From assembly GCF_000020385.1 (NCBI RefSeq), contig NC_010814.1, positions 3,870,001 to 3,902,000 on the forward strand: a DNA stretch of 32,000 bases, read 5' to 3'. Both the position numbers and the translations under genes were made by a program. This stretch comes from Trichlorobacter lovleyi SZ (GTDB lineage Bacteria > Desulfobacterota > Desulfuromonadia > Geobacterales > Pseudopelobacteraceae). Below the pieces are notes generated by a model. It did not search any database. It saw nothing but the letters and a program-made list of their open reading frames with translations, and had not been told where the DNA came from. Positions 11,369 through 32,000 of this stretch are shown piece after piece (the first letter of the stretch is position 1; each line of letters begins with the position of its first letter).

Positions 11369-11378
11369 TTCCTTATGG

Positions 11379-20623: not shown

Positions 20624-20639
20624 AGCATATTCAGTGCCA
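20624..20639 (-). promoter_or_regulatory. candidate sigma-54 (-24/-12) promoter upstream of the 20586 gene, overlapping the helicase stop codon
   Basis: The minus strand reads TGGCAC-TGAAT-ATGCT with GG-N10-GC spacing. Only the first base of the -12 block departs from the TGGCAC-N5-TTGCW consensus. The -12 element lies about 38 nt upstream of ATG 20586. Confidence 0.4.
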
Positions 20640-23147
20640 TGATTGGAAAAACTGCTCCATCCGGCTGAATACCTGATCCAGCGGAGCGATCAGTTGTGCG
20701 GCCTCAGGCAAAGACTTTCTGAAACGCGCACCATAATTCTTGGTGACCATCCGGCTATCAAGAATCAGCACGGCCCCACGGTCAGTCCGGCTGCGGATCA
20801 GGCGGCCAAAGCCCTGACGCAGCTTGAGCACCGCCTGGGGCACTGACATCTCACGGAACGGATCGCCCCCCAGGCTGGTGATCCGCTCTGCCCTTGCCTG
20901 CTGGATCGGCTCTGTCGGCACCTGAAACGGCAGCCGGGCAATCACCACCAAGCGCAGGGCATCCCCCTTGACATCCACCCCTTCCCAGAAAGAATCAGTA
21001 CCGAACAGCACGGCATGCTGTTCCTTGCGGAAACGGGCCAACAGCTGGTGCCTGCCGCCCCCCTCACCCTGCCGCAATACCGTTATTCCCTGATTTTCCA
21101 GTTCAGCTTTAAGGGCAGCATGAGTCTGACGCAGCAGGTCAAAAGAGGTGAACAGCACAAAGGCGCCTCCCTGCGAGATGCTGATCGCCCGCAGCACTGC
21201 ATCAGCCAATGGCTGGCGAAAGGCAAAACTGGTTGGGTCAGGTAGATCCCGGGGGATGGCCACCAATGACTGCTCTGCATAATCAAAGGGTGAGGCCAGT
21301 GCCAGCTCCTGCAGCCGCTCCGACTCCAGCAGGTCAAGGCCGGTCCTTCTGCGCAGATAGCCGAATGAGCCACCCACGGTCAGGGTGGCTGAGGTCAGCA
21401 CCACCGTGGGGATCGGATCAAGCAAAGCGGTCTTGATGGTCTCTGCCACATCCAGGGGTGCCACACAGACCGTGGCCTGGCTGCCCCGGCTGGTCTGCTT
21501 GGCCTCCAGCCAGCAGCAGGCCTCAGGATCATCAGTGCAGAACCAGGCCAGTTCACGGCTGATCGCCACCAGACGCTGACCAATGCCAAAGGCGTCAGTT
21601 AACAGCCCGTTCACCGCCTGCATGACCGTGTCCGGCAGCTTGGCAGCAGCCCGGTCCAGTGCTCCCAGACCATCGGCCAGTTCCTGCAACTGCTCGCCCA
21701 GACGCTTCAGGCGGGTCTCCAGCTCATGCCAGAACGGTGTGGCACGCACCTCTGCGGTAATCCTGCGCTTCAGCTCACCACCCCGCTGATCATCTCCTTG
21801 TTGCATTTCACCTTGCAAGGCCTGGGCAAGCCAGTCCAGCTCACGGTCAACCGCGCCTGCCAGCTCATGGACCTGGGGCAGTAGGGCAGCCTCGATCAGG
21901 CCGGATAGTTCCTGATACAGGGCATCCAGCTCTTCCGGTAGTTCCTTGCCGATCTTGGTGTTCAGTACGCTCAGGATGCCGGCTCTGCCACCGGATGGCG
22001 CCAGCCTTGACAGTTGCTTCATCAACCCGGCCCGGCTGATCCTGACTGACAAGGCGCCGGTGGCCGCCTCTTCCAGGTGGTGGGCCTCATCAATAATCAG
22101 ACGGCTGAAGGGTGGCAGAATGGCAACCGCATCATAACCGCTCTCACGGCGCAGGGCGATATCAGCCAGCAGCAGGGCGTGGTTGACCACCAGCAGCCGG
22201 GCTGAAGCGGCATCGCGGCGCGCCTTGTAGAAAAAGCAGCGGTTAAACTCCGGACAGCGGGAACGGCCACACTGGTCTGCCTCGCAACGCAGGTCATCCC
22301 AGACCTCCCAGGCAGGATGGAAGGAGAGATCGCTCAGGCAGCCGCTGCGAGTGGTTTCGCTCCAGGCAGCTATGGCCTGTAACTCCTCCGAAGCGCTGTC
22401 CGGGAACAGGGACGGCTCATCCAGCACCCCGCCCAGTTTGCGCAGGCAAAGGTAGTTGCCGCGCCCCTTGACCAGACAGGCGGTGAACTCCGTGGCAGCA
22501 TGGCGTTGCAGCAGGGGAATATCCTTCTTGATCAGCTGTTCCTGCAGGTTGATGGTGTTAGTGGAGATCACCACCCGTTGATCATTACGCATGGCCCAGA
22601 GCAGGGCAGGCACCAGATAGGCCAGTGATTTGCCGGTGCCGGTACCGGCCTCAATCAGCGCCACGGTGTTGTCGTTAAAGGCGGTTGCCACGCTAAAGGC
22701 CATCCGCACCTGTTCATCCCGTTTTTCATACCCCTTAAGATGCTTAGCCAGCATCCCGTCAGAGCCAAAGACCTTTTCCAGCTCATCAAAATTAAGCCGT
22801 TCGCCGGTGCGGGGGGTATGGGGCGCCACCACCAGATAGCAACGCTGGCAGTCATTGTCGATGATGCCGAAACCGATCCCGTTGTTGCCGCAGATCGAGG
22901 CCAGATCAAGATCAGCATCAGAGGGGATCAGCTCGCCGGAGGGGTGGTTGTGCAGCACCATCTGGCCGGCCGAGGCGCGGGAGAGGATGGCCGGTACGGC
23001 GTGCTTATTGCCACGGGCAATGGCCTCGGCAGAGACCATCACACCATTGTCGTCCAGGCAGGCGATGAAGAAGACCTCATTACCACGGGCCTGTTTGATC
23101 TCAAAACGGATCAGGGCGCTGCAATCAGTTGAAAAGGTTGCGGGCAT
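20631..23147 (-). CDS. DinG/XPD-family (DEAD_2/helicase_C_2) Fe-S helicase with N-terminal RadC-like JAMM/MPN+ domain
   Basis: Residues 1-110 carry E24 and HNHPSGELIPSDAD (H66, H68, S76, D79; nt 22952-22911), the H-x-H-x7-S-x2-D JAMM motif in its RadC form. The helicase part has Walker A EAGTGTGKS, the Cys cluster CEADQCGRSRCPEFNRC, DEAH box IIDEAHHLEE, and the C-terminal motifs SATL, FWEGVD and QGFGRLIR. Confidence 0.8.
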   Translation of the reverse strand: MPATFSTDCSALIRFEIKQARGNEVFFIACLDDNGVMVSAEAIARGNKHAVPAILSRASAGQMVLHNHPSGELIPSDADLDLASICGNNGIGFGIIDNDCQRCYLVVAPHTPRTGERLNFDELEKVFGSDGMLAKHLKGYEKRDEQVRMAFSVATAFNDNTVALIEAGTGTGKSLAYLVPALLWAMRNDQRVVISTNTINLQEQLIKKDIPLLQRHAATEFTACLVKGRGNYLCLRKLGGVLDEPSLFPDSASEELQAIAAWSETTRSGCLSDLSFHPAWEVWDDLRCEADQCGRSRCPEFNRCFFYKARRDAASARLLVVNHALLLADIALRRESGYDAVAILPPFSRLIIDEAHHLEEAATGALSVRISRAGLMKQLSRLAPSGGRAGILSVLNTKIGKELPEELDALYQELSGLIEAALLPQVHELAGAVDRELDWLAQALQGEMQQGDDQRGGELKRRITAEVRATPFWHELETRLKRLGEQLQELADGLGALDRAAAKLPDTVMQAVNGLLTDAFGIGQRLVAISRELAWFCTDDPEACCWLEAKQTSRGSQATVCVAPLDVAETIKTALLDPIPTVVLTSATLTVGGSFGYLRRRTGLDLLESERLQELALASPFDYAEQSLVAIPRDLPDPTSFAFRQPLADAVLRAISISQGGAFVLFTSFDLLRQTHAALKAELENQGITVLRQGEGGGRHQLLARFRKEQHAVLFGTDSFWEGVDVKGDALRLVVIARLPFQVPTEPIQQARAERITSLGGDPFREMSVPQAVLKLRQGFGRLIRSRTDRGAVLILDSRMVTKNYGARFRKSLPEAAQLIAPLDQVFSRMEQFFQSWH

Positions 23148-23152
23148 GAAGA

Positions 23153-23332
23153 TCAGGATTGTTCGTCAGACAATAAGTTCATATCTGAGTATGGTGCCGG
23201 GCGTATCTCCCCCAGCGACTTCAGGCAGGTCTTCCGGTCCTCATCACCCCCAAAAATCGTAGCGCGGTTGTTGTCGCGTTGCATAATCTGATATGGGTGA
23301 CCAGGCGCTATGCTGCAGGCTGTTTTTAACAT
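23153..23332 (-). pseudogene. decayed N-terminal fragment of a Y1 (IS200/RAYT-like, COG1943-type) transposase
   Basis: The translation MLKTACSIAPGHPYQIMQRDNNRATIFGGDEDRKTCLKSLGEI resembles the conserved N-terminus of this family (..PG..YHV..RGN.R..IF.DD.DR..FL.LL) as I recall it. The expected HUH region reads LLSDEQS and is followed by a stop after about 60 codons, against full-length proteins of well over 150 aa. Confidence 0.4.
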
Positions 23333-23486
23333 CGGTTGGATAGTAATGACAGTTATTCGCATTGGCAATACAAATGTGGTGAATGGCCCGAATGGTGCGT
23401 TGTCGGCAATAGTACATGCACCTGAAAGCAACTCGACTCAACAGATGGTGTTCGCTATTGACAGCACACATCATTCCGCTAAGCTA

Positions 23487-25208
23487 ATGCCTATGTTAAA
23501 CAGAATCTGCTTTCTAATAATCATCATTTCATTTTTCGGTGGGTTGCCGCTCCATGCTGAGCAGGCTACCCCCGACAATGCCCATGTGATCGTCGTCGGA
23601 GGTAACAGCAACTACCCGCCCTATCAATTTATCGGCAAAAATGGCCAACCTGACGGATATATTGTCGATCTGACCAAGGCGATTGCAGGCGTGATGGGGA
23701 TGAAGATTGATATCCGCCTCGGAGATTTCGGGGGAATTCTGGATGAGTTGGAGAATGGCCGGATTGATATCCTTGAAGGTCTTTCCTATTCAGAAAGCAG
23801 GGCGCAGCACTACGATTTTTCCCCCCCGCACTCAATTATCGTGCATGCCATCTTTGCACGAAAGGGGACTAAAGAGGTTAAAACGCTGGATGAACTGCGG
23901 GGTAAAAAAGTGTTGGTGCATCGGGGTGGCGGTATGCACAGCTACATGAAGGAGCACAATTACGCCCACGACCTAGTCCTGACCGATAGCCCGCGTGAAA
24001 CCTTGCAACAGCTTGCCGTCGGCAAATGTGATTATGCCGTCGTGGCACTTTTGCCCGGTATGTATATCATTCGCGAAGAAAACCTGACCAATATTGTGCC
24101 GATAGCCAAGAACATCATCCAGCAGCGTTACTATTGTTATGCGGTCAAAAAAGGAAATACCGAGCTCCTTGCCAGGTTTAACGAAGGGCTCACCATCCTT
24201 AAGAAAACCGGCCAGTACGATGCAATATATAACAAATGGCTGGGGGTACTGGAACCGCAAAGGGTTTCCTGGAGGGTTATTGCAAAATATGCCGCGTTAG
24301 TGGTGATTCCGCTTGTGTTGGTACTTATGGGAACGGTGCTCTGGTCTTATTCCCTGCGCAAGCAGGTGGCACAGCGAACAGAATCTCTTTCAAAGGCTCT
24401 GGTTGAGTTGCGCTCCAATCAGCAGCAACTTGTTCAAGCGGATAAAATGGCTGCGTTGGGAATACTCGTGTCAGGCGTAGCCCACGAAATCAATAACCCG
24501 ACCGGTATCATCCTGATGAATATGCCGACGCTGAGAAAGATTCTCCGCGATGCCGAGCGCATTCTGGACCAATACCGCGAGGAGCATGGCGATTATTCGC
24601 TCGGCGGACTTTCGTACGAACGTGTGCGGCAGGAATTGCCGCTCCTTCTGGAAGAAATGCAGGATGGAGCAGAGCGAATCAAACATACCGTAAATGACCT
24701 TAAGAATTTTGCCCGCAAGGATGATGAAGCCGCCAAGGTGTTACTTGATTTCAATGCCGTGGTACAGACGGCGGTACGGCTGGTCGATGTAACAACCAGA
24801 AAAGCTACCAATAGTTTTACAACAAGCTATGCAGACAATCTTCCGGGGATCATGGGCAACGCGCAACGCATCGAGCAGGTGGTGGTGAACCTGATTATGA
24901 ATGCCTGCCAGGCGCTTCCTGATCCCGGCCGTGCCATTGCCATCTCGACCCACTTTGATCCACAAGCCAACGTCGTTGTCCTTACCGTCAAGGATGAAGG
25001 ATCCGGCATTCCGCCGGAGCATCTGCCGCGTCTGACGGACCCTTTCTTTACCACCAAACGTGAAAGCGGGGGGACGGGATTGGGGCTCTCTGTCTCAGCC
25101 TCTATTATTAAGGATCACGGCGGAGAGCTTACCTTCGACTCAGCGCATGGTAAGGGAACGACGGTTAAATGTACGTTTCAGGCCGCCATGGAGGGCAAGA
25201 AGCTGTGA
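23487..25208 (+). CDS. sensor histidine kinase with periplasmic family-3 solute-binding (SBP_bac_3-like) domain
   Basis: Signal/TM segment (LNRICFLIIIISFFGGLPLHA), then a periplasmic domain of about 230 aa with PBP type-2 features (NYPPYQF, DIRLGDFGGILDELENGRIDIL, YAVKKGN). Second TM is AALVVIPLVLVLMGTVLW. H-box GVAHEINNPTG, N-box LIMNACQA, G-boxes DEGSGI and GGTGLGLS. Start at ATG 23487 or 23493; the ORF track start at 23310 is an unlikely extension. Confidence 0.8.
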   Translation: MPMLNRICFLIIIISFFGGLPLHAEQATPDNAHVIVVGGNSNYPPYQFIGKNGQPDGYIVDLTKAIAGVMGMKIDIRLGDFGGILDELENGRIDILEGLSYSESRAQHYDFSPPHSIIVHAIFARKGTKEVKTLDELRGKKVLVHRGGGMHSYMKEHNYAHDLVLTDSPRETLQQLAVGKCDYAVVALLPGMYIIREENLTNIVPIAKNIIQQRYYCYAVKKGNTELLARFNEGLTILKKTGQYDAIYNKWLGVLEPQRVSWRVIAKYAALVVIPLVLVLMGTVLWSYSLRKQVAQRTESLSKALVELRSNQQQLVQADKMAALGILVSGVAHEINNPTGIILMNMPTLRKILRDAERILDQYREEHGDYSLGGLSYERVRQELPLLLEEMQDGAERIKHTVNDLKNFARKDDEAAKVLLDFNAVVQTAVRLVDVTTRKATNSFTTSYADNLPGIMGNAQRIEQVVVNLIMNACQALPDPGRAIAISTHFDPQANVVVLTVKDEGSGIPPEHLPRLTDPFFTTKRESGGTGLGLSVSASIIKDHGGELTFDSAHGKGTTVKCTFQAAMEGKKL

Positions 25209-26617
25209 ATAATGATCTATATCCGGCATTTGGAGTGCTGCTTGTGGATGACGAACCGGCATGGCTTCGTTCTCTCTCTCTTGCTCTGGAAAGCAACTCG
25301 GGGATTACCAATGTCGTGCTCTGCAAGGACAGCCGCGAGGTCATGGGCATCCTGGAGCGTCAGAATATCGGCCTTATCCTCCTTGATCTCACCATGCCGC
25401 ATCTTTGCGGTGAAGAATTGCTGACACTCATTGGCGAGCAGTATCCCGATATCGCCACGATTGTGGTAAGCGGTCTGAATCAGGTCGGTACGATTGTTAC
25501 CTGCATGAAGCTTGGCGCATATGATTATTACGTTAAAACCGACGACGAAGAACGGATCGTCTGTGGTGTTCTCCGTGCCATTAAACTGCTGGAGTTGCAG
25601 CGGGACACCAAAGAGATGACACAACGCTTTGTGACATGCGAGTTGAAACACCCGGAAGCATTTCATGCAATCTGTACCGTTGATCGTGCCATGCAGTCAA
25701 TCTTTGCCTACATTGAGGCGGTGGCCCAAAGTCCACTACCGCTACTCATTACCGGAGAAAGCGGCGTTGGCAAAGAGCTCCTGGCCAAAGCGGCTCACGA
25801 CCTCAGCGGATGCAAAGGAGAACTGGTTGCAGTAAACGTCGCCGGACTCGACGATACGGTTTTTGCCGACACCCTCTTCGGCCATGTCCGAGGTGCCTTC
25901 ACCGGCGCGGAAAGTGTTCGCCGCGGCATGATCGAAGTGGCAACCAATGGAACGCTATTTCTCGATGAAATTGGTGATCTCAGCACGGCATCGCAGGTCA
26001 AGTTACTCCGCCTTATTCAGGAAGGGGAATATTTCCCGCTTGGCAGCGACCAACCCAAACGCCTCAAGGCGCGGATCATCGTTGCCACCCACCAGAATCT
26101 GGAAACAAAAGAGGCGTCCGGCGCGTTCCGCCGGGATCTGTTCTATCGGCTTCGCACCCATCATGTTCTGATTCCACCACTACGCAAACGCATAGACGAC
26201 CTTCCCTATCTGCTGGACCTCTTTCTGGAAGAAGCGGCTCGCACGCTGGGCAAAAAGAAGCCGACACCGCCGCCCAGCCTTGTGCCACTACTGTCTACCT
26301 ACAGTTTTCCCGGTAACATCCGCGAGCTTAAGGCCATGATCTATGACGCCGTAAGTACACACAAAGGTCATATGCTCTCGATGGATTCATTTCTAAAGGC
26401 CATCAACAACTCTTCAGAACATCCCGTGACGATGGCCAGTGTACCGGAGCATAATCCCTTTGCCTGCTTCGAGCGGCTGCCAACCTTTGCCAATGCCGCA
26501 ACCTACCTTCTTGAAGAAGCGCTCACACGCGCCAAAGGCAATCAGACTCTGGCTGCCCGTCTGCTCGGTATTTCCCAGCCGTCTCTCTGGAAAAGACTCA
26601 AACTCGCACGTCGCTAA
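25205..26617 (+). CDS. sigma-54-dependent response regulator (REC + AAA+ sigma54-interaction + Fis-type HTH; NtrC family)
   Basis: Receiver motifs VLLVDDEP and LILLDLTMPHLCG. Walker A GESGVGKE, intact GAFTGA loop, Walker B LFLDEIGDL, FRRDLFYRL, and C-terminal HTH GNQTLAARLLGISQPSLWKRLK. GTG 25205 overlaps the kinase stop as GTGA and has a GGAGGG SD 9 nt upstream. In-frame ATG 25169 is the alternative start. Confidence 0.85.
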   Translation: MNNDLYPAFGVLLVDDEPAWLRSLSLALESNSGITNVVLCKDSREVMGILERQNIGLILLDLTMPHLCGEELLTLIGEQYPDIATIVVSGLNQVGTIVTCMKLGAYDYYVKTDDEERIVCGVLRAIKLLELQRDTKEMTQRFVTCELKHPEAFHAICTVDRAMQSIFAYIEAVAQSPLPLLITGESGVGKELLAKAAHDLSGCKGELVAVNVAGLDDTVFADTLFGHVRGAFTGAESVRRGMIEVATNGTLFLDEIGDLSTASQVKLLRLIQEGEYFPLGSDQPKRLKARIIVATHQNLETKEASGAFRRDLFYRLRTHHVLIPPLRKRIDDLPYLLDLFLEEAARTLGKKKPTPPPSLVPLLSTYSFPGNIRELKAMIYDAVSTHKGHMLSMDSFLKAINNSSEHPVTMASVPEHNPFACFERLPTFANAATYLLEEALTRAKGNQTLAARLLGISQPSLWKRLKLARR

Positions 26618-26620
26618 ACA

Positions 26621-26661
26621 GCTATTGCCAAAGTCTATACTCTATAGATTTTGGCAATAGC
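26621..26661. promoter_or_regulatory. 41-nt near-perfect palindrome: candidate activator-binding site (UAS) and/or terminator of the kinase-regulator operon
   Basis: GCTATTGCCAAA (26621-26632) and TTTGGCAATAGC (26650-26661) are perfect 12-nt inverted arms. Pairing continues inward (one G-T, then 6 bp) to a 3-nt loop. It starts 4 nt after the regulator stop and is centred about 180 nt upstream of the -12 element. No T-run follows. Confidence 0.5.
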
Positions 26662-26806
26662 CATTCTATCCCGGCCAATTACCTGCCTTTCAACACTTCC
26701 GCAATATCCCTCCATAGCCTGCGGCTATAACGGATACGTTCTGTCCAATTACCTTAATTTGTTTAAAACAATAGTAAATATAGGCTGTTGTGCATAAACG
26801 CCCCTT

Positions 26807-26822
26807 TGGCACCGTTCGTGCT
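26807..26822 (+). promoter_or_regulatory. sigma-54 (-24/-12) promoter for the flavocytochrome operon
   Basis: TGGCACC-GTTC-GTGCT matches TGGCACG-N4-TTGCW with correct GG-N10-GC spacing. It lies 63 nt upstream of ATG 26885 and immediately downstream of a gene for a sigma-54 activator. Confidence 0.6.
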
Positions 26823-26884
26823 CCTACTGTGATTGGAATTACTATCAAGGAGGACGCTTCGGATGTCACAAAAAGGAGGAGTTT

Positions 26885-28675
26885 ATGAGACTGTTTAGAG
26901 CAGGCACCGTACTACTTTGTTCGCTGGTTTTGCTGGTCGGAAGCTCGCAGGTGTGGGCAGATGGAGGGACTTCAAAAACCACATTCCTGGCAGGTATTCA
27001 CAAAAAGAACCAGATGAGTTGTGCCGATTGTCATGGCAAATCTCTTGCCGTTGATGACAGCGAGACGGTTCTAAACAAAAAATGTGTTGAATGCCATGGG
27101 ACATTTGCAAGTCTTGCAAGCAAGAAAAAAGAACATATCAATCCGCATAAGTCCCACCTGGGAGAGGTCAACTGTACCACGTGCCACAAGGGACATACGG
27201 CGTCCAAGGCGTACTGCAATTACTGCCATTCGTTCGGTATGAAAATCCCTGCTATGGGCAGCGTCGAACAGTCCAATAGTAAAAAATGGATTCAGGAAAC
27301 AGCTCCCAAAAAATCTGACACAGCCAAGACTGTTACGGAACGTGCCGACATTGTTGTTATCGGTGCCGGTGGCGCCGGTTATGTGGCTTCGATCACTGCC
27401 CATGACGCCGGAGCCAAGGTAATCCTCTTGGAAAAGATGCCGATAACCGGTGGAAACAGCATGCTTGCAGCAGGCGGCATTAATGCGGCAGCAACACGAA
27501 TCCAGAAAGAACGCGGCATTCAGGATGATCCGGCTGAAATGGTTAAAGAGACCATGAAAGGCGGAAGAGAAAAGAACGACCTTGAACTGGTAAAAATCCT
27601 CTCGTACCGTTCATCCGACGCAGTTGATTTTCTGGTATCCCTTGGCGCAGACATGAGCGATTTGGTGCGCTCAGGCGGTGTACACGCCGACAGAACCCAC
27701 AGACCTGTAGGCGGAGCAGCGGTAGGCCCCCATCTGGTAAAAGTCTACAGAGAAAATGCTGCTAAACGCAACATTGACGTACGCGTAAATTCTGAAGTCG
27801 TAAAGATCCTCACTGACAAAAACGGCAGGGTAACCGGCGTACAGGTAAAAGGTAAACACAGAGGGTTGTACACCATAAAGGCTAAAGCGGTAATCGACAC
27901 AGCAGGCGGTTTTGCTGCAAACAATGATCTGGTTGGTTTTTACAAACCGCAGTTCAAAGAAACAGCTTCTTCAAACCAGCCCGGCGCAACCGGAGAAGGT
28001 GTTGTTCTGGCTGAAAAAATTGGTGCAAAAGTGATCGACATGGAGCAGATCCAGATCCATCCGACCATGGGCGGCGAAACCAAGGTGCTTGTCTCTGAAA
28101 CGGTTCGGGGCAGCGGCGCCATTCTGGTAAATCATGCGGGCAAGCGTTTTGTTAATGAGCTGACAACCCGCGACAAAGCCTCAGCAGCAATCTTTGCACA
28201 GCCGGAGAAGACAGCATTTCTTGTCCTTGGCGAAGATATCCGCAAGAGCAATGTGCAGATAGACGGGTATATCGAGCTCGGCCTCGTACAAGAATCCGAT
28301 TCAATTGAAGGATTAGCAACAAAGATGGGCGTTCCTGCCGCAACCCTTGCCGCAACAATTGCATCATACAACAAGGCCTATGACGCAAAGAATGACCCTG
28401 AGTTCAAACGTCAAGACATCCCGCGAAAAATTGCCGGTCCCAAGTACTATTCCATCTGGGTTAAGCCAGGCCGCCATCACACTATGGGCGGCGTCAAAAT
28501 CAATACGGAAGGTCAGGTAATCAGCACAAATGGCACACCGGTGGTTGGTCTGTATGCCGCCGGAGAGGTTACCGGTGGCGTCCATGGCTGGAACCGGCTG
28601 GGTGGCAACGCCATTACCGATACTGTTGTGTTCGGTCGTATCGCCGGGGCAAGTGCAGCCAAATTTGTCAAGTAG
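26885..28675 (+). CDS. periplasmic flavocytochrome c: N-terminal tetrahaem cytochrome domain + FAD-dependent fumarate/enoate reductase domain (Shewanella FccA/Fcc3-like)
   Basis: Signal peptide (LLCSLVLLVGSSQVWA). Four CxxCH motifs: CADCH at 27020-27034, CVECH, CTTCH, and CNYCH at 27215-27229. FAD Rossmann DIVVIGAGGAGYVASITAHDAGAKVILLEK. Catalytic blocks QIHPT, VSETVRGSGAILVN, GKRFVNELTTRD, RHHTMGGVKIN and GEVTGGVHGWNRLGGNA. Strong AGGAGG SD. Confidence 0.9.
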   Translation: MRLFRAGTVLLCSLVLLVGSSQVWADGGTSKTTFLAGIHKKNQMSCADCHGKSLAVDDSETVLNKKCVECHGTFASLASKKKEHINPHKSHLGEVNCTTCHKGHTASKAYCNYCHSFGMKIPAMGSVEQSNSKKWIQETAPKKSDTAKTVTERADIVVIGAGGAGYVASITAHDAGAKVILLEKMPITGGNSMLAAGGINAAATRIQKERGIQDDPAEMVKETMKGGREKNDLELVKILSYRSSDAVDFLVSLGADMSDLVRSGGVHADRTHRPVGGAAVGPHLVKVYRENAAKRNIDVRVNSEVVKILTDKNGRVTGVQVKGKHRGLYTIKAKAVIDTAGGFAANNDLVGFYKPQFKETASSNQPGATGEGVVLAEKIGAKVIDMEQIQIHPTMGGETKVLVSETVRGSGAILVNHAGKRFVNELTTRDKASAAIFAQPEKTAFLVLGEDIRKSNVQIDGYIELGLVQESDSIEGLATKMGVPAATLAATIASYNKAYDAKNDPEFKRQDIPRKIAGPKYYSIWVKPGRHHTMGGVKINTEGQVISTNGTPVVGLYAAGEVTGGVHGWNRLGGNAITDTVVFGRIAGASAAKFVK

Positions 28676-28705
28676 GATCGCGCGTTACTAACAACGCAAG
28701 TAAAT

Positions 28706-28740
28706 GGAGTTCCTGAGCTCATGGGGAGTTCAGGAACTCC
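28706..28740 (+). terminator. strong intra-cassette hairpin (partial terminator or mRNA-stabilising stem) between the flavocytochrome and MFS genes
   Basis: GGAGTTCCTGAGCTC (28706-28720) pairs with GAGTTCAGGAACTCC (28726-28740), giving a 15-bp stem with one G-T and a 5-nt loop. It begins 31 nt after the stop at 28675. No T-run follows. Confidence 0.4.
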
Positions 28741-28778
28741 ACACCCAGGCTTTGAGAAGCATCCGAGAGGTTATACCT

Positions 28779-30023
28779 ATGGAAACCCGTAGTCTGTTTC
28801 GGGCACTGTTCCTGATCAACTTCGCCATCACCCTCGGTTTTGGCATTGCCGACGCATTCTTCTCTATGTACGTTTTCAGCCTGGGAGCCAGGGGCATCCT
28901 TCTGGTGCTGCCGCTGGTACTCTATTCACTCTCAAAGATTCTCTTCAGCCCTTTTATGGGGGCCTGCTCCGACAAGATAGGACCAAGAAGAATTGCTTCC
29001 ATCAGTCTCGGTCTCTATCTACTCGTATCAATCTGCTATTTCTTCACTACCAGTCTGATGCTTATCACCATTATGCGCCTGTTTCAGGGGATCGGCTGCG
29101 CAATGTTCAGACCGTTGGTTGCCTCTCTTGTGGGTGAGAGGACGACAAGTGAAAAACGTGCAACCGTCTTGGGGACCTTTGACATTTCCTTTTACGGTGC
29201 TTTAAGCGTCGGGCCGGTTGTCGGCGGAATACTCAAGGATATCTGGGGCTTTGAGGGGATTTTTGCAGTGCTGACGCTGCTTTGCATCGTGGCGCTGTTG
29301 GTGGCACTGTTTTACATTCCTGCACAAAGACTCTCCAAGAACCATGCGGCAGAACGCAAAACGGAAAACCAATGCAAGTGCAGGACTATTTTTACGATGG
29401 CCCGGCAAAACTCCCTACGGGGGCTTCTTGCCTTCATCTTTGGCCGGGCCTGCGGGATATCGCTGCTGAGTGCCTTCCTGCCGATACTGCTAACAACCAA
29501 GCTCGGATTGAGCGGCATACAGACCGGATTGGTGATGGCCTCCGGCTCCCTGGTATTCACCCTCCTCCTGCGGCCAATCGGCATGCTTTCAGATAAGACA
29601 CCGCGCAAGCCTCTGATTGTCGCCGGCGGCACCATCGTATCGTTGCTCTACTTTCTGATACCTGTTGTGTCCGGATTTAGCCAGATACTGTTCCTGGGGT
29701 TGGGAATAGGCATGTTCAGCGTGCTCTCTCAGCCCGCCTGTACAACGCTCCTGATAGAAGAGGGAGTCCGTCACGGCATGGGGTTAACCGTTGGAATCTT
29801 TAATTCGGTGCTGAACCTGGGGTTTATTGCGGGTCCGTTATTCGGAGCAGGTATGCAACACACGTTCGGCCTGTCCTCGGTTTTTTATGCCGCTGGAATC
29901 TTGGGGTTTGTTGCAGTTGGACTGTTTATCACAACAATCGTGTCAGAGGATACGCCATCTTCAGCGCTTTTCCTTGAGAAGGGCGACGTCACACTATCTT
30001 ACGTAACATCAGAAAAGCTGTAA
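28779..30023 (+). CDS. MFS transporter (12-TM type)
   Basis: Repeated hydrophobic helices throughout, with an MFS motif-A-like loop GACSDKIGPRRIA between TM2 and TM3. Start at ATG 28779 with a GAGAGG SD; the ORF-track start at 28704 lies inside the hairpin. Confidence 0.8.
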   Translation: METRSLFRALFLINFAITLGFGIADAFFSMYVFSLGARGILLVLPLVLYSLSKILFSPFMGACSDKIGPRRIASISLGLYLLVSICYFFTTSLMLITIMRLFQGIGCAMFRPLVASLVGERTTSEKRATVLGTFDISFYGALSVGPVVGGILKDIWGFEGIFAVLTLLCIVALLVALFYIPAQRLSKNHAAERKTENQCKCRTIFTMARQNSLRGLLAFIFGRACGISLLSAFLPILLTTKLGLSGIQTGLVMASGSLVFTLLLRPIGMLSDKTPRKPLIVAGGTIVSLLYFLIPVVSGFSQILFLGLGIGMFSVLSQPACTTLLIEEGVRHGMGLTVGIFNSVLNLGFIAGPLFGAGMQHTFGLSSVFYAAGILGFVAVGLFITTIVSEDTPSSALFLEKGDVTLSYVTSEKL

Positions 30024-30061
30024 TCAAGAAATACAACTATTTAAACCAAAGGAGCTCACAC

Positions 30062-31369
30062 ATGAAATTTGCAAAACTTGGTTTGGCGGGGATAATCGTT
30101 GCTGGCCTTGCGACCAGTTCGTATGGAGCAGACTCACTGTTTGATGCCTTTAAAAACGGGAAAACAAACGGGGAGCTCAGGGCATGGTATTTTGATAGAA
30201 AAGTAGAAAATGCCCCTACTAGTTCAGCAGGCATCTTCACTACCGCGGCAATATTAGGCTATGTTACTGATACTTTTTACGGTTTTAGCTTAGGAGGAAC
30301 ATTTGAGGCAGTCTATGCTCCTGAGGCTAGTTCTGGTGCAAAGAATGTTTACAAAAGCGACATGTACGCCTCAGGTGCAGTTCTTTCAGAGGCGTATTTA
30401 CAATATGGCATAGCGAAAACGGCAGTTAAAGCCGGACGGCAATATATTTCTACGCCGTTGGTTACCGGAAGCGGTACGAGAATTGTTAAAGAATCCTTTC
30501 AAGGGGCTATGCTTACCAGTAAAGACCTCTCTGATACGACGATAACCGGAGGCTATATTAATAAGTTTCAAGGTAGAACCGGCTATGCCACAGGAGATTC
30601 CGTGGGTGATGCTCCGGATTTCGCCTCAAGATCAATATTCCTTGGTATTTCAGGGTCAACAACCTATGAATTTAATGGAGCTTACACCGTTGCGGTTATT
30701 AACAAGTCCATTCCAAACCTGACACTGACTGGACAATATCTTAATGTGGGCGACGTGAAGGTCGGTACAAAGAAATCAGATATCCATGTCTATTATACTG
30801 ATGCTAAATACTTACTCCCAATGGATGGGTACAAATTGGAATTTGCTCTTAACTTTCGCGGATCGCAGACAGAGGATCCACTATCTGCTACAATAAAGTA
30901 TAATGGTACGTATGCTGCTGGTAAAATTGCGGTCAGCGAGCTGGCAGGATTTGGAGCAAGCTTTGTTGCCGCAACAACCAGCCGTGATGATGCAGTGATA
31001 GCCGGTATGGGGAACGGCCCTTCAAGTTACACGGCAACACTGATAAGGGCAAGTACAGCCACCTTGACAGCCAATACCAATTCGTACCGGTGCGATGTGA
31101 CTTATGATTTTTCAAAAATCGGTCTTGCCGGGCTTAAAGGTGCATTGCAGTATGGTTGGACAAATCAAAACAGAGTAGGGACGGCAGCAACCAGTTCAGA
31201 TTATACTTCATATGCAGGGAGTTTGGATTACGCTGTTCCTCTGCTTAAGGGGCTGTCTTTGGCAGTACAGTATGAAAAACAGGAGAATGAGACCACGAAG
31301 TATACCTCCAATACCAAAACCTCCATTGACACCGATGAGTTGCGAATTAAACTGGCCTATAAATTCTGA
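30062..31369 (+). CDS. outer-membrane beta-barrel porin (OprD-like/unclassified)
   Basis: Signal peptide MKFAKLGLAGIIVAGLATSSYG-AD, alternating amphipathic beta-strand pattern rich in Y/G/T/S, and the C-terminal barrel signature ...LRIKLAYKF ending in Phe. AAGGAG SD. Confidence 0.7.
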   Translation: MKFAKLGLAGIIVAGLATSSYGADSLFDAFKNGKTNGELRAWYFDRKVENAPTSSAGIFTTAAILGYVTDTFYGFSLGGTFEAVYAPEASSGAKNVYKSDMYASGAVLSEAYLQYGIAKTAVKAGRQYISTPLVTGSGTRIVKESFQGAMLTSKDLSDTTITGGYINKFQGRTGYATGDSVGDAPDFASRSIFLGISGSTTYEFNGAYTVAVINKSIPNLTLTGQYLNVGDVKVGTKKSDIHVYYTDAKYLLPMDGYKLEFALNFRGSQTEDPLSATIKYNGTYAAGKIAVSELAGFGASFVAATTSRDDAVIAGMGNGPSSYTATLIRASTATLTANTNSYRCDVTYDFSKIGLAGLKGALQYGWTNQNRVGTAATSSDYTSYAGSLDYAVPLLKGLSLAVQYEKQENETTKYTSNTKTSIDTDELRIKLAYKF

Positions 31370-31404
31370 AAGCCTCTTGTCGAAATTGCACTTGCTTTAT
31401 GACA

Positions 31405-31436
31405 AAGCCTCCGGGGTAGTAAAGTCCCGGAGGCTT
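31405..31436. terminator. hairpin terminator shared by convergent porin and ABC-F genes
   Basis: AAGCCTCCGGG (31405-31415) and CCCGGAGGCTT (31426-31436) form an 11-bp stem with a 10-nt loop. It is followed by GTTG on the plus strand and TTTGTC on the minus strand. Confidence 0.55.
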
Positions 31437-31474
31437 GTTGCCTAACCCTCACCCCCACTTTCCCTAGGGTGAAA

Positions 31475-32000
31475 TTATGACAACTCCTCCCACTGCGCGT
31501 ACAGTTCCTCAAGCCTGGTGTTCAGTGCTGTATGCTGCTCACCGGCAGCCAGCCCTTGCTCAGGATCATCAAAGAAGCCGGGCCTGTTCATCTCTGCCTC
31601 AAGCTCAGCAATTTTTTGCTCAACCGTGGCGATCTCCTTCTCAATCGACTGTTGCTGTTTCTCCCGTGCCTGTTCTTCCTTTTTACGACGTTTCTGTTCT
31701 TCACGATCTTTAAGACGGTCTTCCTTATTCTGGGGGGGTAGCAACGCTACAGCGGATACGTTTGGTGCCGGTTCGGCTGCCGTCTTGATCTGGCGCGCTG
31801 ATGCAACAGGTGTCTGGGCTGATTCGCTCTCTTTTTTTGATAAATAGTATTCGTAATCGCCGTAATAATCGGTCAGCTTGCCTTCGCCAACCTCTACAAT
31901 CCGCGTTGCCAGACCGTTCACAAAGTAGCGGTCGTGGGAGACAAACACCACGGTGCCGTCAAAGCCCTTCAGGGCATCCAGCAGCACCTCTTTGCTGAAC
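31475..32000 (-). CDS. ABC-F family ATPase, C-terminal part (5' end lies beyond the window end)
   Basis: The frame is open to nt 32000. The H-loop region FDGTVVFVSHDRYFVN is followed by the Lys/Glu-rich coiled-coil tail (EEQKRRKKEEQAREKQQQSIEKEIATVEQKIAELEAEM) typical of ABC-F proteins. Confidence 0.85.
   Translation of the reverse strand, partial: FSKEVLLDALKGFDGTVVFVSHDRYFVNGLATRIVEVGEGKLTDYYGDYEYYLSKKESESAQTPVASARQIKTAAEPAPNVSAVALLPPQNKEDRLKDREEQKRRKKEEQAREKQQQSIEKEIATVEQKIAELEAEMNRPGFFDDPEQGLAAGEQHTALNTRLEELYAQWEELS

What the first reader, a model, noticed from the sequence alone, without database searches (positions are those of the whole stretch)
23148..31474. AT-shifted 8.3-kb cassette: solute-binding-domain kinase, sigma-54 activator, FccA-like flavocytochrome c, MFS transporter and porin (candidate self-contained periplasmic respiratory module)
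Seen in sequence: five co-directional plus-strand genes (23487-31369) sit in a window otherwise dominated by GC-rich minus-strand genes. My hand counts of single 60-nt lines give about 42-53% G+C inside (lines starting 24241, 27541, 30301) and about 70% in a core line (9781). These are rough samples, not statistics, but the shift is obvious by eye. The left edge carries a decayed Y1/RAYT-type transposase fragment (23153-23332) and the right edge a strong hairpin (31405-31436). The internal logic is complete. A periplasmic ligand-binding kinase pairs with an NtrC-type activator with an intact GAFTGA loop. Palindromic sites and a near-consensus -24/-12 promoter follow, then a signal-peptide-bearing tetrahaem/FAD reductase, an inner-membrane MFS carrier and an outer-membrane porin. 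Inference: this is a horizontally acquired unit that senses a periplasmic organic acid, lets it through the outer membrane and reduces it in the periplasm with electrons from the host's cytochrome network. As far as I know, a dedicated sensor, sigma-54 control and a private porin bundled with this enzyme class is not a described operon type. The substrate is not deducible from sequence.
Basis: partly seen in the sequence, partly recalled or inferred. Interest (0 to 1): 0.72.

Follow-up and report, generated by a model that had tools for sequence, protein, structure and literature searches.

The report
Acquired periplasmic fumarate-respiration gene cassette
An 8.3-kb, probably horizontally acquired gene block in Trichlorobacter (Geobacter) lovleyi encodes a fumarate sensor, its sigma-54 activator, a Shewanella-type periplasmic fumarate reductase and a porin; these parts are known, but its efflux-type transporter may supply flavin to the periplasmic enzyme, which nobody has described.

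Summary
Five co-directional genes lie between a DinG-type helicase gene and an ABC-F gene in the T. lovleyi SZ chromosome. Their G+C is 0.50 against 0.57 for the rest of the window, with tetranucleotide z-scores of 5–10.

The two nearest relatives lack the block at this junction. One has nothing there and the other has an unrelated 6.5-kb insert. The same module sits in other genomic contexts in two other contigs, AT-shifted there too.

- The enzyme scores 591 bits against Shewanella FccA and keeps every catalytic residue.
- The kinase and activator are orthologues (63% and 70%) of the pair directly upstream of dcuB in G. sulfurreducens, whose RpoN promoter is experimentally verified.
- The two loci share an upstream palindrome, ATARCC-N3-GGYTAT.

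So this is a new variant of known kinds, not a new operon type.

The most novel lead concerns the MFS gene. Its subfamily resembles efflux pumps. It almost always lies next to Sec-exported FAD reductases, tetrahaem cytochromes or an extra ribBA gene. This suggests a flavin exporter for periplasmic cofactor loading. That role is inferred from gene neighbourhood only and is untested.

The parts
20631..23147 (-). Left flank: host RadC-like/DinG-YoaA-type helicase gene
   Evidence: Pfam Helicase_C_2, DEAD and RadC; NCBIfam YoaA/DinG. It is 97% identical to the sister-species locus L007.
23148..23480 (.). Left junction DNA, found only in this lineage and not part of the conserved module
   Evidence: No homology in L092 or L087. 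It is found only in the identical contigs L001-L003.
23207..23311 (-). N-terminal remnant of an IS200/RAYT-type Y1 transposase (open frame 23156-23359). It has no HUH motif or catalytic Tyr region.
   Evidence: tblastn against plasmids gives E = 7e-4. It is 54% identical over 35 aa to residues 8-42 of a Y1_Tnp protein.
23487..25208 (+). Sensor histidine kinase with a periplasmic SBP_bac_3 (Venus-flytrap) domain between two TM segments. It is an HK29/3H7M-type sensor and a probable C4-dicarboxylate sensor.
   Evidence: Pfam hits. TM segments at residues 4-22 and 269-287. PDB 3h7m matches at E = 1.1e-87. It is 63% identical to the G. sulfurreducens kinase upstream of dcuB. Start 23487 agrees with orthologues of 571-573 aa and with the left end of module homology at 23481.
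25205..26617 (+). NtrC-type sigma-54 activator (receiver, AAA+ with GAFTGA, HTH_8). Its GTG start overlaps the kinase stop codon (GTGA).
   Evidence: Pfam and NCBIfam. It is 70% identical to the G. sulfurreducens enhancer-binding protein (EBP) upstream of dcuB, with a nearly identical HTH. Start codon checked.
26621..26661 (.). Upstream activator site 1: 19-nt inverted repeat GCTATTGCCAAAGTCTATA / TATAGATTTTGGCAATAGC
   Evidence: Arms are 95% complementary. It is conserved in L092, L087 and C. bremense, with compensatory changes (AAAG/CTTT to GGAG/CTCC).
26714..26728 (.). Upstream activator site 2: ATAGCCTGCGGCTAT. This is the same motif class as the two sites upstream of G. sulfurreducens dcuB.
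   Evidence: It is invariant in alignment A1. The ATARCC-N3-GGYTAT motif is also found in L092, L087 and twice upstream of dcuB in L178. There are 18 hits in 2.2 Mb of fetched DNA.
26807..26822 (+). Sigma-54 (-24/-12) promoter TGGCACCGTTCGTGCT, followed by RBS AGGAGG at 26873-26878
   Evidence: Exact pattern match. The GG-N10-GC spacing is conserved in four loci.
26885..28675 (+). Flavocytochrome c (FccA/Ifc3-type periplasmic fumarate reductase). It has a Sec signal peptide, four CXXCH motifs and an FAD domain.
   Evidence: 591 bits against 1d4c, E = 2e-176. Fcc3 residues H365, E378, R381, R402, H504 and R545 correspond to window residues H392, E405, R408, R429, H531 and R571. CXXCH motifs at residues 46, 67, 97 and 111. 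TIGR01813 scores 509 bits against a cut-off of 285.
28705..28741 (+). Intercistronic 16-bp stem-loop between fccA and the MFS gene, with no U-tract. It may be a transcript-processing or stability element.
   Evidence: Arms are 94% complementary. The fold is -42.9 kcal/mol, z = -5.3. A hairpin is kept at the same place in L092, L087 and C. bremense despite sequence changes.
28779..30023 (+). DHA1/efflux-type MFS transporter. It belongs to a distinct subfamily linked to Sec-exported flavoproteins and ribBA, and is a candidate flavin exporter.
   Evidence: MFS_1 scores 159 bits, and the best NCBIfam hits are efflux families. The closest solved proteins are NorA, YajR, EmrB, QacA and MdfA. It is 100% identical to an NCBI T. 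lovleyi protein of 414 aa. Start 28779 is conserved in L092 and L087.
30062..31369 (+). OprD/Occ-family outer-membrane porin, with a signal peptide and C-terminal YKF
   Evidence: PF03573 scores 49.4 bits against a cut-off of 25. There are weak PDB hits to OpdC, OpdO and VanP. Termini checked.
31401..31439 (.). Strong hairpin at the right end of the conserved module. It may act as a bidirectional terminator, but the tail is not canonical.
   Evidence: -25.2 kcal/mol, z = -3.3. Module homology with L092 runs to 31456.
31475..32000 (-). Right flank: 3' end of the host ABC-F (Uup-like) ATPase gene
   Evidence: Pfam ABC_tran_CTD. The full-length protein is 94.6% identical to that of L007.

Best explanation
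The block 23481-31456 is a laterally acquired, self-regulated module for periplasmic fumarate respiration in Trichlorobacter lovleyi SZ.

Proposed mechanism:
1. Fumarate, or a close C4-dicarboxylate, enters the periplasm through the OprD-type porin (inferred).
2. It binds the Venus-flytrap domain of the kinase (inferred from orthology).
3. The kinase phosphorylates the NtrC-type activator.
4. The activator binds the two conserved palindromes and opens the sigma-54 promoter at 26807-26822 (sequence and conservation shown; function inferred).
5. fccA, the MFS gene and the porin gene are transcribed together.
6. FccA is exported unfolded by Sec. It receives four haems and non-covalent FAD in the periplasm. 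It reduces fumarate to succinate with electrons from the host's quinol-oxidising cytochrome network (by analogy with Shewanella FccA).
7. The efflux-type MFS most likely exports a flavin (FAD or a precursor) for this periplasmic cofactor loading, rather than carrying the substrate (inferred from gene neighbourhood).

The module sits in a variable junction between the ABC-F and helicase genes, next to a dead RAYT-type transposase remnant. How it integrated is not visible.
For: Identity of the genome: the kinase and the MFS are 100% identical to NCBI T. lovleyi (SZ) proteins on the 3,917,761-bp contig.

Acquisition:
- G+C is 0.50 against 0.57, GC3 is shifted, and tetranucleotide z is 5.3-9.7.
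- In sister species L007 (helicase 97%, ABC-F 94.6%) the ABC-F stop and the helicase ATG are 1 nt apart.
- L012 (helicase 88%) has a MacB-type efflux system and three toxin-antitoxin pairs at the same junction.
- More distant relatives have no cassette within 10 kb of the helicase gene.
- The module recurs at 87% and 78% DNA identity in L092 and L087, with unrelated flanks. Homology begins and ends at 23481 and 31456. The module is AT-shifted there too: 0.49-0.50 against 0.54-0.57.

Fumarate:
- 591 bits against Shewanella FccA, with all catalytic residues conserved. M375L and T377S match the fumarate reductase Ifc3.
- The sensor domain matches 3h7m at E = 1e-87.
- The G. sulfurreducens orthologues (kinase 63%, activator 70%) lie directly upstream of dcuB.
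- The dcuB RpoN promoter was mapped by primer extension, and an EBP gene lies upstream of it (PMC2725144).
- The ATARCC-N3-GGYTAT palindromes are shared.
- T. lovleyi grows on fumarate, and the genome paper could not say which of its seven pfam00890 proteins is responsible (PMC3403914).

Regulatory sites: phylogenetic footprint with compensatory changes.

Porin: OprD family.

MFS: see the novel case.
Against: - No experiment exists on this locus. Ligand, regulon and enzyme activity are all inferred.
- The 'empty' junction in L007 may itself be derived. Its ABC-F ends in WESCA*, whereas the window (WEELS*), L012 (WEGLSG*) and the distant orthologue in L087 (WEELSG*) agree. The direction of the event therefore rests on composition and distribution, not on a pristine target site.
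- There are no target-site duplications, terminal inverted repeats or a tRNA gene.
- The RAYT remnant lies outside the conserved module.
- The hairpin at the 3' end lacks a U-tract.
- The ligand of the 3H7M-type domain is not known to me.
- FccA-type enzymes in Shewanella also act as general periplasmic electron carriers.
Confidence: 0.72

Rival explanations
1. The enzyme reduces a different alpha,beta-unsaturated carboxylate (acrylate, methacrylate, crotonate, urocanate, cinnamate and so on), and the sensor detects that compound.
For: The FAD_binding_2 soluble reductase family includes methacrylate and urocanate reductases (PMC4427408). T. lovleyi has a second fccA paralogue (60% identity) next to dcuB, which could be the dedicated fumarate enzyme. 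The window enzyme would then be free for another substrate. The sensor's ligand has not been determined.
Against: Every residue that binds and protonates fumarate in Fcc3 is conserved, and the overall match to FccA and Ifc3 is far stronger than to urocanate reductase (591 and 565 bits against 248). The kinase and activator are orthologous to the dcuB-linked pair, and the upstream-site motif is shared.
Confidence: 0.1
2. The cassette is ancestral in this clade and was lost or displaced in relatives. The AT shift would reflect gene-specific constraints rather than recent transfer.
For: The L007 junction looks secondarily altered (ABC-F C-terminus WESCA*). Module identity between the window and L092 (87% DNA) is about the same as core-gene identity between the window and L007 (88%). 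In L087 the module lies about 6 kb from the orthologous ABC-F gene. There are no mobility signatures.
Against: The tetranucleotide and GC3 deviation covers all five genes. The same module is AT-shifted in three different hosts but matches host composition in C. bremense (0.617 against 0.62-0.63). It has three different flanking contexts. The two closest relatives and four further ones lack it at this junction. The ancestry is mosaic: kinase and FccA are about 75-80% identical to Geomonas but 56-58% to Oryzomonas, whereas the MFS is 73% to Oryzomonas and 57-59% to Geomonas.
Confidence: 0.15
3. FccA here serves mainly as a periplasmic electron carrier or electron buffer for extracellular electron transfer, not as a terminal reductase.
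For: In S. oneidensis, FccA and CctA are described as functionally redundant carriers between CymA and MtrA (PMC12485616). T. lovleyi has a reduced cytochrome complement (PMC3403914).
Against: A dedicated ligand sensor orthologous to the dcuB regulator, a carboxylate-type porin and an intact active site are hard to explain for a pure carrier.
Confidence: 0.05
4. The MFS is a carboxylate carrier (succinate uptake or fumarate/succinate exchange) that works with the reductase.
For: It is co-transcribed with the reductase. Taking up the succinate product would be useful. MFS families do include carboxylate symporters.
Against: The best family and structure matches are all efflux or drug:H+ antiporter types, and none is a carboxylate symporter. 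The subfamily recurs next to ribBA and next to reductases in unrelated clusters, for example a methylmalonyl-CoA mutase cluster, which probably handle different substrates. Some ribBA-MFS pairs have no reductase within 8 kb (L098, L111).
Confidence: 0.25

Closest known systems
Shewanella flavocytochrome c3 fumarate reductases (FccA/Fcc3, PDB 1D4C and 1QJD; Ifc3, PDB 1QO8)
   Same: The architecture is the same: Sec signal, N-terminal tetrahaem domain and FAD_binding_2 domain. Scores are 555-591 bits. All catalytic and proton-pathway residues are conserved.
   Different: From my own knowledge, Shewanella fccA stands alone and is not under a dedicated two-component/sigma-54 system. Here the gene is bundled with a sensor, an activator, an MFS and a porin, and the host is a Geobacterales bacterium. 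From memory, and not verifiable in the library, the S. frigidimarina ifcA gene is flanked by a porin-like ifcO and a LysR-type ifcR. That would be a partial precedent for a private porin.
G. sulfurreducens HK29-type kinase / sigma-54 activator / dcuB locus (GSU2751 region)
   Same: The kinase (63%) and the activator (70%, with a near-identical HTH) are orthologous. Both loci have a sigma-54 promoter and ATAACC-N3-GGTTAT-type palindromes. Both are linked to fumarate respiration.
   Different: The target there is the inner-membrane fumarate/succinate exchanger that feeds a cytoplasmic-face FrdCAB. Here the target is a periplasmic reductase plus an MFS and a porin, with no dcuB. An extra long palindrome (26621-26661) is present here.
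Split flavoprotein/cytochrome enoate reductases (G. sulfurreducens AM-1 Mrd-Mcc, W. succinogenes FccABC)
   Same: They are periplasmic FAD_binding_2 reductases paired with tetrahaem cytochromes. They tend to be transferred horizontally as a unit, and a transposase and a GTP cyclohydrolase gene lie nearby in AM-1 (PMC4427408).
   Different: Those flavoproteins carry Tat signals, so the cofactor is loaded in the cytoplasm. The window enzyme is a fused, Sec-exported flavocytochrome. Identity is only 38-39%.
Bfe, the MATE-family FAD exporter of S. oneidensis
   Same: The proposed role is analogous: moving flavin across the inner membrane, where periplasmic flavoproteins and shuttles need it (PMC3551548; PMC12485616).
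   Different: It belongs to a different superfamily (MATE, not MFS) and is not linked to fccA. A bfe deletion strain grows normally on fumarate, so Bfe is not the only route. No transport data exist for the MFS.

Membership tests
Flavocytochrome c fumarate reductase (FccA/Fcc3/Ifc3; TIGR01813) | Sec signal peptide plus an N-terminal tetrahaem domain with four CXXCH motifs | tested here: met
   The N-terminus is MRLFRAGTVLLCSLVLLVGSSQVWA/DGG. CXXCH motifs lie at residues 46, 67, 97 and 111. Cytochrom_c3_2 matches at E = 1.4e-20.
Flavocytochrome c fumarate reductase (FccA/Fcc3/Ifc3; TIGR01813) | FAD_binding_2 domain scoring above the curated family cut-off | tested here: met
   TIGR01813 scores 509 bits against a cut-off of 285.45. 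PF00890 scores 282 bits. The narrower NF005064 scores 504 bits, below its cut-off of 542.
Flavocytochrome c fumarate reductase (FccA/Fcc3/Ifc3; TIGR01813) | Catalytic and substrate-binding residues H365, R402, H504 and R545, plus proton-pathway residues E378 and R381 (Fcc3 numbering) | tested here: met
   All are conserved in the alignment to 1d4c. M375 is L and T377 is S, as in Ifc3 (1qo8).
Flavocytochrome c fumarate reductase (FccA/Fcc3/Ifc3; TIGR01813) | Fumarate reductase activity with non-covalent FAD | not testable with these tools
   This needs enzymology.
NtrC-type sigma-54 enhancer-binding response regulator | Receiver domain, AAA+ domain with a GAFTGA loop, and a Fis-type HTH | tested here: met
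   Response_reg, Sigma54_activat (181 bits), AAA_lid_14 and HTH_8 all match. GAFTGA is visible in the sequence.
NtrC-type sigma-54 enhancer-binding response regulator | A target promoter with -24 GG / -12 GC elements and upstream palindromic sites | tested here: met
   TGGCACCGTTCGTGCT lies 63 nt upstream of the fccA ATG and is conserved in four loci. Two conserved palindromes lie 80-190 nt upstream of it. RpoN dependence itself was not tested.
HK29/3H7M-type SBP_bac_3 sensor kinases (dcuB-linked in G. sulfurreducens) | A periplasmic family-3 solute-binding fold between two TM helices, and orthology to the crystallised sensor | tested here: met
   3h7m matches at E = 1.1e-87. TM segments lie at residues 4-22 and 269-287. 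It is 63% identical to the G. sulfurreducens kinase next to dcuB.
HK29/3H7M-type SBP_bac_3 sensor kinases (dcuB-linked in G. sulfurreducens) | Binding of fumarate or another C4-dicarboxylate as the signal | not testable with these tools
   The ligand is inferred from the target genes only.
OprD/Occ outer-membrane carboxylate channels | A family HMM match above the cut-off, a signal peptide and a C-terminal aromatic residue | tested here: met
   PF03573 scores 49.4 bits against a cut-off of 25. The NCBIfam Opr porin model scores 42.9 bits, below its cut-off of 150. The N-terminal signal and the C-terminal YKF were checked. PDB matches are weak (E = 3e-6 to OpdC).
DHA-type (drug:H+ antiporter-like) MFS exporters | MFS_1 fold with about 12 TM segments, and closest relatives that are exporters | tested here: met
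   MFS_1 scores 159 bits. The hydropathy scan finds 11 segments. The profile search of PDB gives NorA, YajR, EmrB, QacA, VMAT and MdfA as best hits. All NCBIfam hits are below their cut-offs.
DHA-type (drug:H+ antiporter-like) MFS exporters | Identity of the exported substrate (flavin) | not testable with these tools
   There is only neighbourhood evidence. No FMN riboswitch was found.
Genomic island / horizontally acquired cassette | Compositional deviation from the host | tested here: met
Genomic island / horizontally acquired cassette | Absence from the same site in close relatives, and presence elsewhere in other contexts | tested here: met
Genomic island / horizontally acquired cassette | Mobility hallmarks: integrase or transposase, flanking repeats, or a tRNA target | tested here: not met
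   There is only a dead 35-68-aa Y1 transposase remnant, and it lies outside the conserved module. There are no flanking direct or inverted repeats and no tRNA gene in the window.

The most novel reading that the evidence does not exclude
The MFS gene downstream of fccA would represent an undescribed subfamily of inner-membrane flavin (FAD or riboflavin) exporters. Its proposed job is to deliver cofactor to flavoproteins that reach the periplasm unfolded through Sec. This would answer an open question: how do Sec-exported flavocytochromes such as FccA get their FAD? In S. oneidensis the known FAD exporter Bfe is dispensable for growth on fumarate.

Evidence for:
- The subfamily is sharply bounded. 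It spans 37-100% identity and then drops to 32% or less.
- In all 8 genome or long-contig contexts I inspected (the window, L087, L088, L092-L096), it lies next to, or within two genes of, an FAD_binding_2 reductase.
- In 13 non-redundant metagenome loci (MFS at least 45% identical to the window's, at least 2 kb of upstream sequence), 10 have such a reductase, 7 have a tetrahaem cytochrome, 6 have ribBA, and 12 have at least one of these within 4.5 kb.
- ribBA lies directly upstream of the MFS gene in L094, L097/L098, L104, L107, L108, L111, L112, L120 and L169.
- All 12 co-directional adjacent non-haem flavoproteins have Sec-type signals, not Tat-type. Described homologues are Tat-exported.
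- The nearest families and solved structures are exporters.
- A different efflux-type MFS follows the second fccA of T. lovleyi.

Evidence against:
- No FMN riboswitch was found.
- FccA homologues in Nitrospirota and Syntrophaceae have no MFS nearby.
- The more distant subfamily members (38-40% identity) sit next to a small cytochrome only.
- There is no transport data.
Probability: 0.4. Interest if true: 0.65.

Novelty: new variant of a known kind. Interest (0 to 1): 0.45.

Why it matters
- It names a concrete, regulated candidate for periplasmic fumarate respiration in T. lovleyi. This is a bioremediation organism whose genome paper could not say which of its seven pfam00890 flavoproteins does the job.
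- It shows that one fumarate-sensing two-component/sigma-54 circuit controls two different solutions to fumarate respiration in Geobacterales. One imports fumarate through DcuB. The other reduces it in the periplasm with FccA.
- It shows that the sensing and respiration package can move as a unit between genomes.
- The MFS lead gives a directly testable candidate for an unsolved step in the biogenesis of periplasmic flavocytochromes, namely cofactor supply after Sec export. It may also bear on flavin secretion in electroactive bacteria.

Tried and rejected
- Pfam and NCBIfam on the transposase fragment gave no hit. The remnant was confirmed only by tblastn against plasmids.
- The search for target-site duplications or terminal inverted repeats found none. 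No tRNA gene is present. The simple terminator scan did not pick up the 3' hairpin because its loop is 10 nt and there is no T-run.
- An FMN riboswitch near the ribBA-MFS pairs or in the window was not found at Rfam gathering thresholds. The only hits were V_AS9 matches antisense to ribBA coding sequence, plus a tRNA-Sec.
- The plasmid database was tried as an independent Sec-versus-Tat control. It returned only distant flavoprotein homologues and was uninformative. It did show a subfamily MFS on T. lovleyi plasmid pIAE1 flanked by transposases.
- I first counted the MFS after the second T. lovleyi fccA (L090) as the same subfamily. Direct comparison shows it is not (26% over 86 aa), so I removed it from the count.
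- I first read L007 as a pristine empty site. The ABC-F C-termini argue that this junction is derived, so I downgraded that argument.
- Pooled Pfam annotation of 103 other neighbours of the MFS subfamily found no further recurrent partner.
- The literature search for ifcO/ifcA returned nothing relevant, so that precedent rests on memory only.

Full report
**What is there.** The window is chromosomal DNA of Trichlorobacter (formerly Geobacter) lovleyi SZ, or an identical strain. The sensor kinase and the MFS protein are 100% identical to NCBI proteins named for T. lovleyi (SZ) on the 3,917,761-bp contig. Five plus-strand genes lie between the start of a RadC/DinG-type helicase gene (20631-23147, minus) and the stop of an ABC-F ATPase gene (31475 onwards, minus).
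- An SBP_bac_3/HisKA/HATPase_c kinase, 23487-25208.
- An NtrC-type activator with GAFTGA. Its most likely start is the GTG at 25205, which overlaps the kinase stop codon. It ends at 26617.
- A 596-aa flavocytochrome c, 26885-28675.
- An MFS transporter. Its start is 28779, not 28704. This agrees with the NCBI model and with conservation of the start in two related loci. It ends at 30023.
- An OprD-family porin, 30062-31369.

**Composition.** G+C is 0.500 for 23148-31474 against 0.571 for the rest of the window. One-kb windows run 0.44-0.54 inside and 0.52-0.63 outside. GC3 of the five genes is 0.58, 0.57, 0.51, 0.61 and 0.39, against 0.652 +/- 0.043 for 24 host genes. The tetranucleotide distance of every 2-kb window from 23001 onwards is 5.3-9.7 standard deviations above the host windows.

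**Edges.** The left 333 bp (23148-23480) are not part of the conserved module. They hold a dead N-terminal remnant of an IS200/RAYT-type Y1 transposase on the minus strand (23207-23311). The remnant is 54% identical over 35 aa to residues 8-42 of a Pfam-confirmed Y1_Tnp protein, with E = 7e-4 in a 7.3-Gb tblastn search. HMM libraries did not detect the fragment. At the right edge, a 10-11-bp G+C-rich hairpin (31401-31439) folds at -25.2 kcal/mol, z = -3.3. It has no U-tract and was not called by the terminator scan. There are no flanking direct or inverted repeats and no tRNA gene in the window.

**Is it acquired?** Five lines of evidence bear on this.
- The closest species representative is L007, a Geobacteraceae MAG. 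Its helicase is 97% identical, its ABC-F is 94.6% identical, and its DNA is about 88% identical. Its ABC-F stop codon lies one nucleotide from the helicase ATG, with no cassette.
- The next relative, L012 (helicase 88%), carries an unrelated 6.5-kb insert at the same junction. The insert encodes a MacB-type ABC efflux system and three toxin-antitoxin pairs.
- Four further relatives (helicase 74-80%) have no cassette within 10 kb.
- The same module occurs at 87% DNA identity in L092 and 78% in L087, with entirely different flanks. Homology to the window runs exactly from 23481 to 31456. In both contigs the module is again AT-shifted relative to its flanks: 0.49-0.50 against 0.54-0.57. In Citrifermentans bremense the related cluster matches host composition.
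- The module also looks mosaic. The kinase and FccA are 75-81% identical to Geomonas and Citrifermentans but only 56-58% to Oryzomonas. The MFS is 73% identical to Oryzomonas and 57-59% to Geomonas. The porin family also differs: OprD here, Porin_O_P in C. bremense.

One caveat weakens the 'empty site' argument. The ABC-F protein ends in WEELS* in the window, WEGLSG* in L012 and WEELSG* in the distant orthologue of L087, but in WESCA* in L007. The tight L007 junction is therefore probably derived, for example by deletion. I conclude that the ABC-F/helicase junction is a variable hot spot, and that acquisition by the T. lovleyi lineage is the most parsimonious reading (about 0.8). The integration mechanism is not visible. 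The RAYT remnant is evidence of past mobile-element activity at the site, not of how the cassette moved. The T. lovleyi genome paper lists six genomic islands and does not include this block (PMC3403914).

**What it does: the enzyme.** The reductase matches the solved Shewanella fumarate reductases end to end. Scores are 591 bits (E = 2e-176) for 1d4c, 565 bits for Ifc3 (1qo8) and 555 bits for Fcc3 (1qjd). Urocanate reductase scores 248 bits. Counting along the gap-free blocks of the 1d4c alignment, the residues that define fumarate binding and catalysis in Fcc3 are all present. H365, E378, R381, R402, H504 and R545 correspond to window residues H392, E405, R408, R429, H531 and R571. M375 is L and T377 is S, exactly as in Ifc3, which is itself a fumarate reductase. 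The protein has a Sec-type signal peptide and four CXXCH motifs. It is the protein listed as YP_001953845.1 (596 aa, Sec, four haems) in a published table of Geobacter flavocytochromes (PMC4427408).

**What it does: the regulators.**
- The periplasmic domain of the kinase matches PDB 3h7m ('Sensor protein') at E = 1.1e-87. From memory, this is the HK29 sensor domain of G. sulfurreducens.
- The full-length G. sulfurreducens orthologue (63% identity) and its activator (70% identity, almost identical HTH) lie immediately upstream of dcuB.
- dcuB encodes the fumarate/succinate exchanger that is essential for fumarate respiration. Its RpoN-dependent promoter was mapped by primer extension, and the authors noted the EBP gene upstream (PMC2725144).
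- The dcuB upstream region carries two ATAACC-N3-GGTTAT palindromes and a -24/-12 element. The window carries ATAGCC-TGC-GGCTAT at 26714 and TGGCACCGTTCGTGCT at 26807. The same motifs occur in L092 and L087.
- An alignment of the intergenic region from four loci shows both palindromes, the -24/-12 element and the RBS as islands of conservation. The long palindrome (26621-26661) shows paired compensatory changes in C. bremense.

The sigma-54 consensus alone is no rarer than chance in the window (3 matches against 6.4 expected). The case therefore rests on position, conservation and orthology. Taken together, the ligand and the substrate are very probably fumarate or a close C4-dicarboxylate. 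T. lovleyi SZ does respire fumarate, and which enzyme is responsible was left open.

**The porin.** The porin passes the Pfam OprD cut-off (49.4 bits against 25) but not the NCBIfam one. Its best solved relatives are Pseudomonas and Acinetobacter Occ channels. From established knowledge, that family conducts small carboxylates, which fits dicarboxylate entry.

**The MFS gene: the unexpected part.** A periplasmic reductase needs no inner-membrane substrate carrier.

*What the transporter resembles.* It resembles exporters. Its best NCBIfam hits are multidrug, Tet, EmrD and siderophore-export families, all below their cut-offs. A profile of 14 subfamily members finds NorA, YajR, EmrB, QacA, VMAT and MdfA as the closest solved proteins.

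*Genome contexts.* The subfamily is sharply bounded: about 110 clusters at 37-100% identity, then a drop to 32% or less. Every genome context I could inspect puts it beside a periplasmic FAD_binding_2 reductase:
- the window, L087, L088 (C. bremense) and L092;
- L093 (Shewanella atlantica): XylR-type sigma-54 activator | flavoprotein - tetrahaem cytochrome - MFS - MetA-type outer-membrane channel;
- L094 (Desulfuromonas): XylR-type activator | cytochrome - flavoprotein - OprD - RibBA - MFS;
- L095: sigma-54 activator - flavocytochrome - MFS;
- L096: methylmalonyl-CoA mutase - B12 domain - flavoprotein - MFS - MeaB.

*Metagenome survey.* A metagenome scan with the subfamily profile gave 80 loci, 56 of them non-redundant. 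I took the loci whose MFS is at least 45% identical to the window's and which have at least 2 kb of upstream sequence (n = 13). Of these, 10 have the flavoprotein, 7 a tetrahaem cytochrome, 6 a ribBA gene, and 12 at least one of these within 4.5 kb. An extra ribBA gene (riboflavin synthesis) lies directly upstream of the MFS gene in L094, L097/L098, L104, L107, L108, L111, L112, L120 and L169. Pooled Pfam annotation of 103 other neighbours showed no further recurrent partner.

*Sec versus Tat signals.* All 12 non-haem flavoprotein subunits that lie co-directionally next to this MFS have Sec-type signal peptides. The only twin-arginine flavoprotein, in L119, is convergent. The described split homologues (Mrd, W. 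succinogenes FccA and others) are Tat substrates. A Sec-exported FAD protein must be loaded with cofactor in the periplasm.

*Why this matters.* In S. oneidensis the MATE-family FAD exporter Bfe is thought to feed periplasmic flavoproteins, yet a bfe deletion strain grows on fumarate at the wild-type rate (PMC3551548; PMC12485616). The route of FAD to FccA is therefore unresolved. I propose that this MFS subfamily exports flavin for periplasmic flavoprotein assembly.

*Counter-evidence.*
- There is no FMN riboswitch.
- FccA homologues in Nitrospirota and Syntrophaceae stand alone.
- The 38-40% identity branch of the subfamily sits next to a small cytochrome and unrelated genes.
- The MFS after the second T. 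lovleyi fccA belongs to a different efflux-type lineage. This could mean convergence on the same need, or coincidence.

I put the probability of the flavin-exporter reading at about 0.4.

**Comparison with what is known.** The parts are members of known families: FccA/Ifc3, an NtrC-type EBP, an HK29-type sensor, an OprD porin and a DHA-type MFS. The regulatory logic is that of the published G. sulfurreducens dcuB system. What differs is the combination. The fumarate-sensing circuit drives a Shewanella-type periplasmic reductase, an exporter-like MFS and a porin instead of dcuB, and the package behaves as a transferable unit. T. lovleyi also has a second locus that combines both strategies: sigma-54/cNMP activator - dcuB - fccA2 - MFS, with similar palindromes and a -24/-12 element. 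I found no paper in the searchable library that describes this bundle or the MFS link. The genes are annotated in public genomes, and one source already names the C. bremense protein 'Periplasmic fumarate reductase, FccA'.

**Verdict.** Novelty is 'new variant of a known kind'. Interest is moderate (0.45), and most of it comes from the MFS/flavin lead rather than from the cassette itself.

Noticed in passing
window 28705-28741: A 16-bp perfect-stem hairpin with no U-tract lies between the fccA stop and the MFS start. It folds at -42.9 kcal/mol, z = -5.3. A hairpin is kept at the same position in L092, L087 and C. bremense despite sequence change. It could set the FccA:MFS expression ratio through partial termination or mRNA stabilisation. 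The mechanical ORF start at 28704 lies inside it.
   Followed up: partly
window 20624-20639 (minus strand): A perfect sigma-54-type element, TGGCACTGAATATGCT, overlaps the helicase stop codon. It lies 38 nt upstream of the ATG of the WXXGXW-repeat, Lys/Glu/Arg-rich secreted protein gene (20032-20586), which has a strong AAGGAGG RBS. This may be a second RpoN-dependent gene in the window.
   Followed up: no
window 30542-30556 and 30904-30919: A copy of the activator-site motif (ATAACCGGAGGCTAT) and a one-mismatch -24/-12-like element (TGGTACGTATGCTGCT) lie inside the porin coding region. The motif copy is also present in L092. About 0.07 motif hits would be expected by chance in 8 kb. This could be an internal promoter or a coincidence.
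   Followed up: no
L012 1780-8312 (Geobacter sp. UBA6169): The same ABC-F/helicase junction holds a MacB-type tripartite efflux system (HlyD, ABC, two FtsX/MacB_PCD genes) plus ParE, PIN and HepT/MNT toxin-antitoxin modules. The junction is an integration hot spot in this clade.
   Followed up: partly
L090 (second T. lovleyi locus), 5650-13053: An 857-aa sigma-54 activator with a cNMP-binding domain is followed by dcuB, a second flavocytochrome c (60% identical to the window's) and an unrelated EntS-like MFS. The dcuB upstream region has ATAACC-N2-GGTTAT palindromes and TGGCACTGTTGCTGCT. The window's activator might cross-regulate this locus.
   Followed up: partly
L096 and L151: A Sec-exported FAD_binding_2 flavoprotein and a subfamily MFS are embedded in a methylmalonyl-CoA mutase / B12-binding / MeaB cluster. 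This is an unexpected pairing of a periplasmic reductase with cytoplasmic mutase genes.
   Followed up: no
L098, L111, L108 (ribBA-MFS pairs): A stand-alone extra ribBA sits directly upstream of the MFS gene, separated by a 430-690-bp spacer. In L098 and L111 there is no flavoprotein within 8 kb. This may be an autonomous flavin synthesis and export pair. No FMN riboswitch was detected in the spacer.
   Followed up: partly
L179 (T. lovleyi strain IAE plasmid pIAE1, 205646-206833): A subfamily MFS (50% identical to the window's) lies on a 290-kb plasmid. Two identical transposase genes lie upstream of it, and a TatA gene lies between them. The subfamily is therefore also plasmid-borne in this species.
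   Followed up: no
window 31475-31477 vs L007 9997-9999: The last residues of the ABC-F protein differ between the window (…WEELS*) and the sister species (…WESCA*). More distant orthologues agree with the window. The cassette-free junction in L007, where the stop codon lies 1 nt from the helicase ATG, is probably a secondary deletion product.
   Followed up: yes
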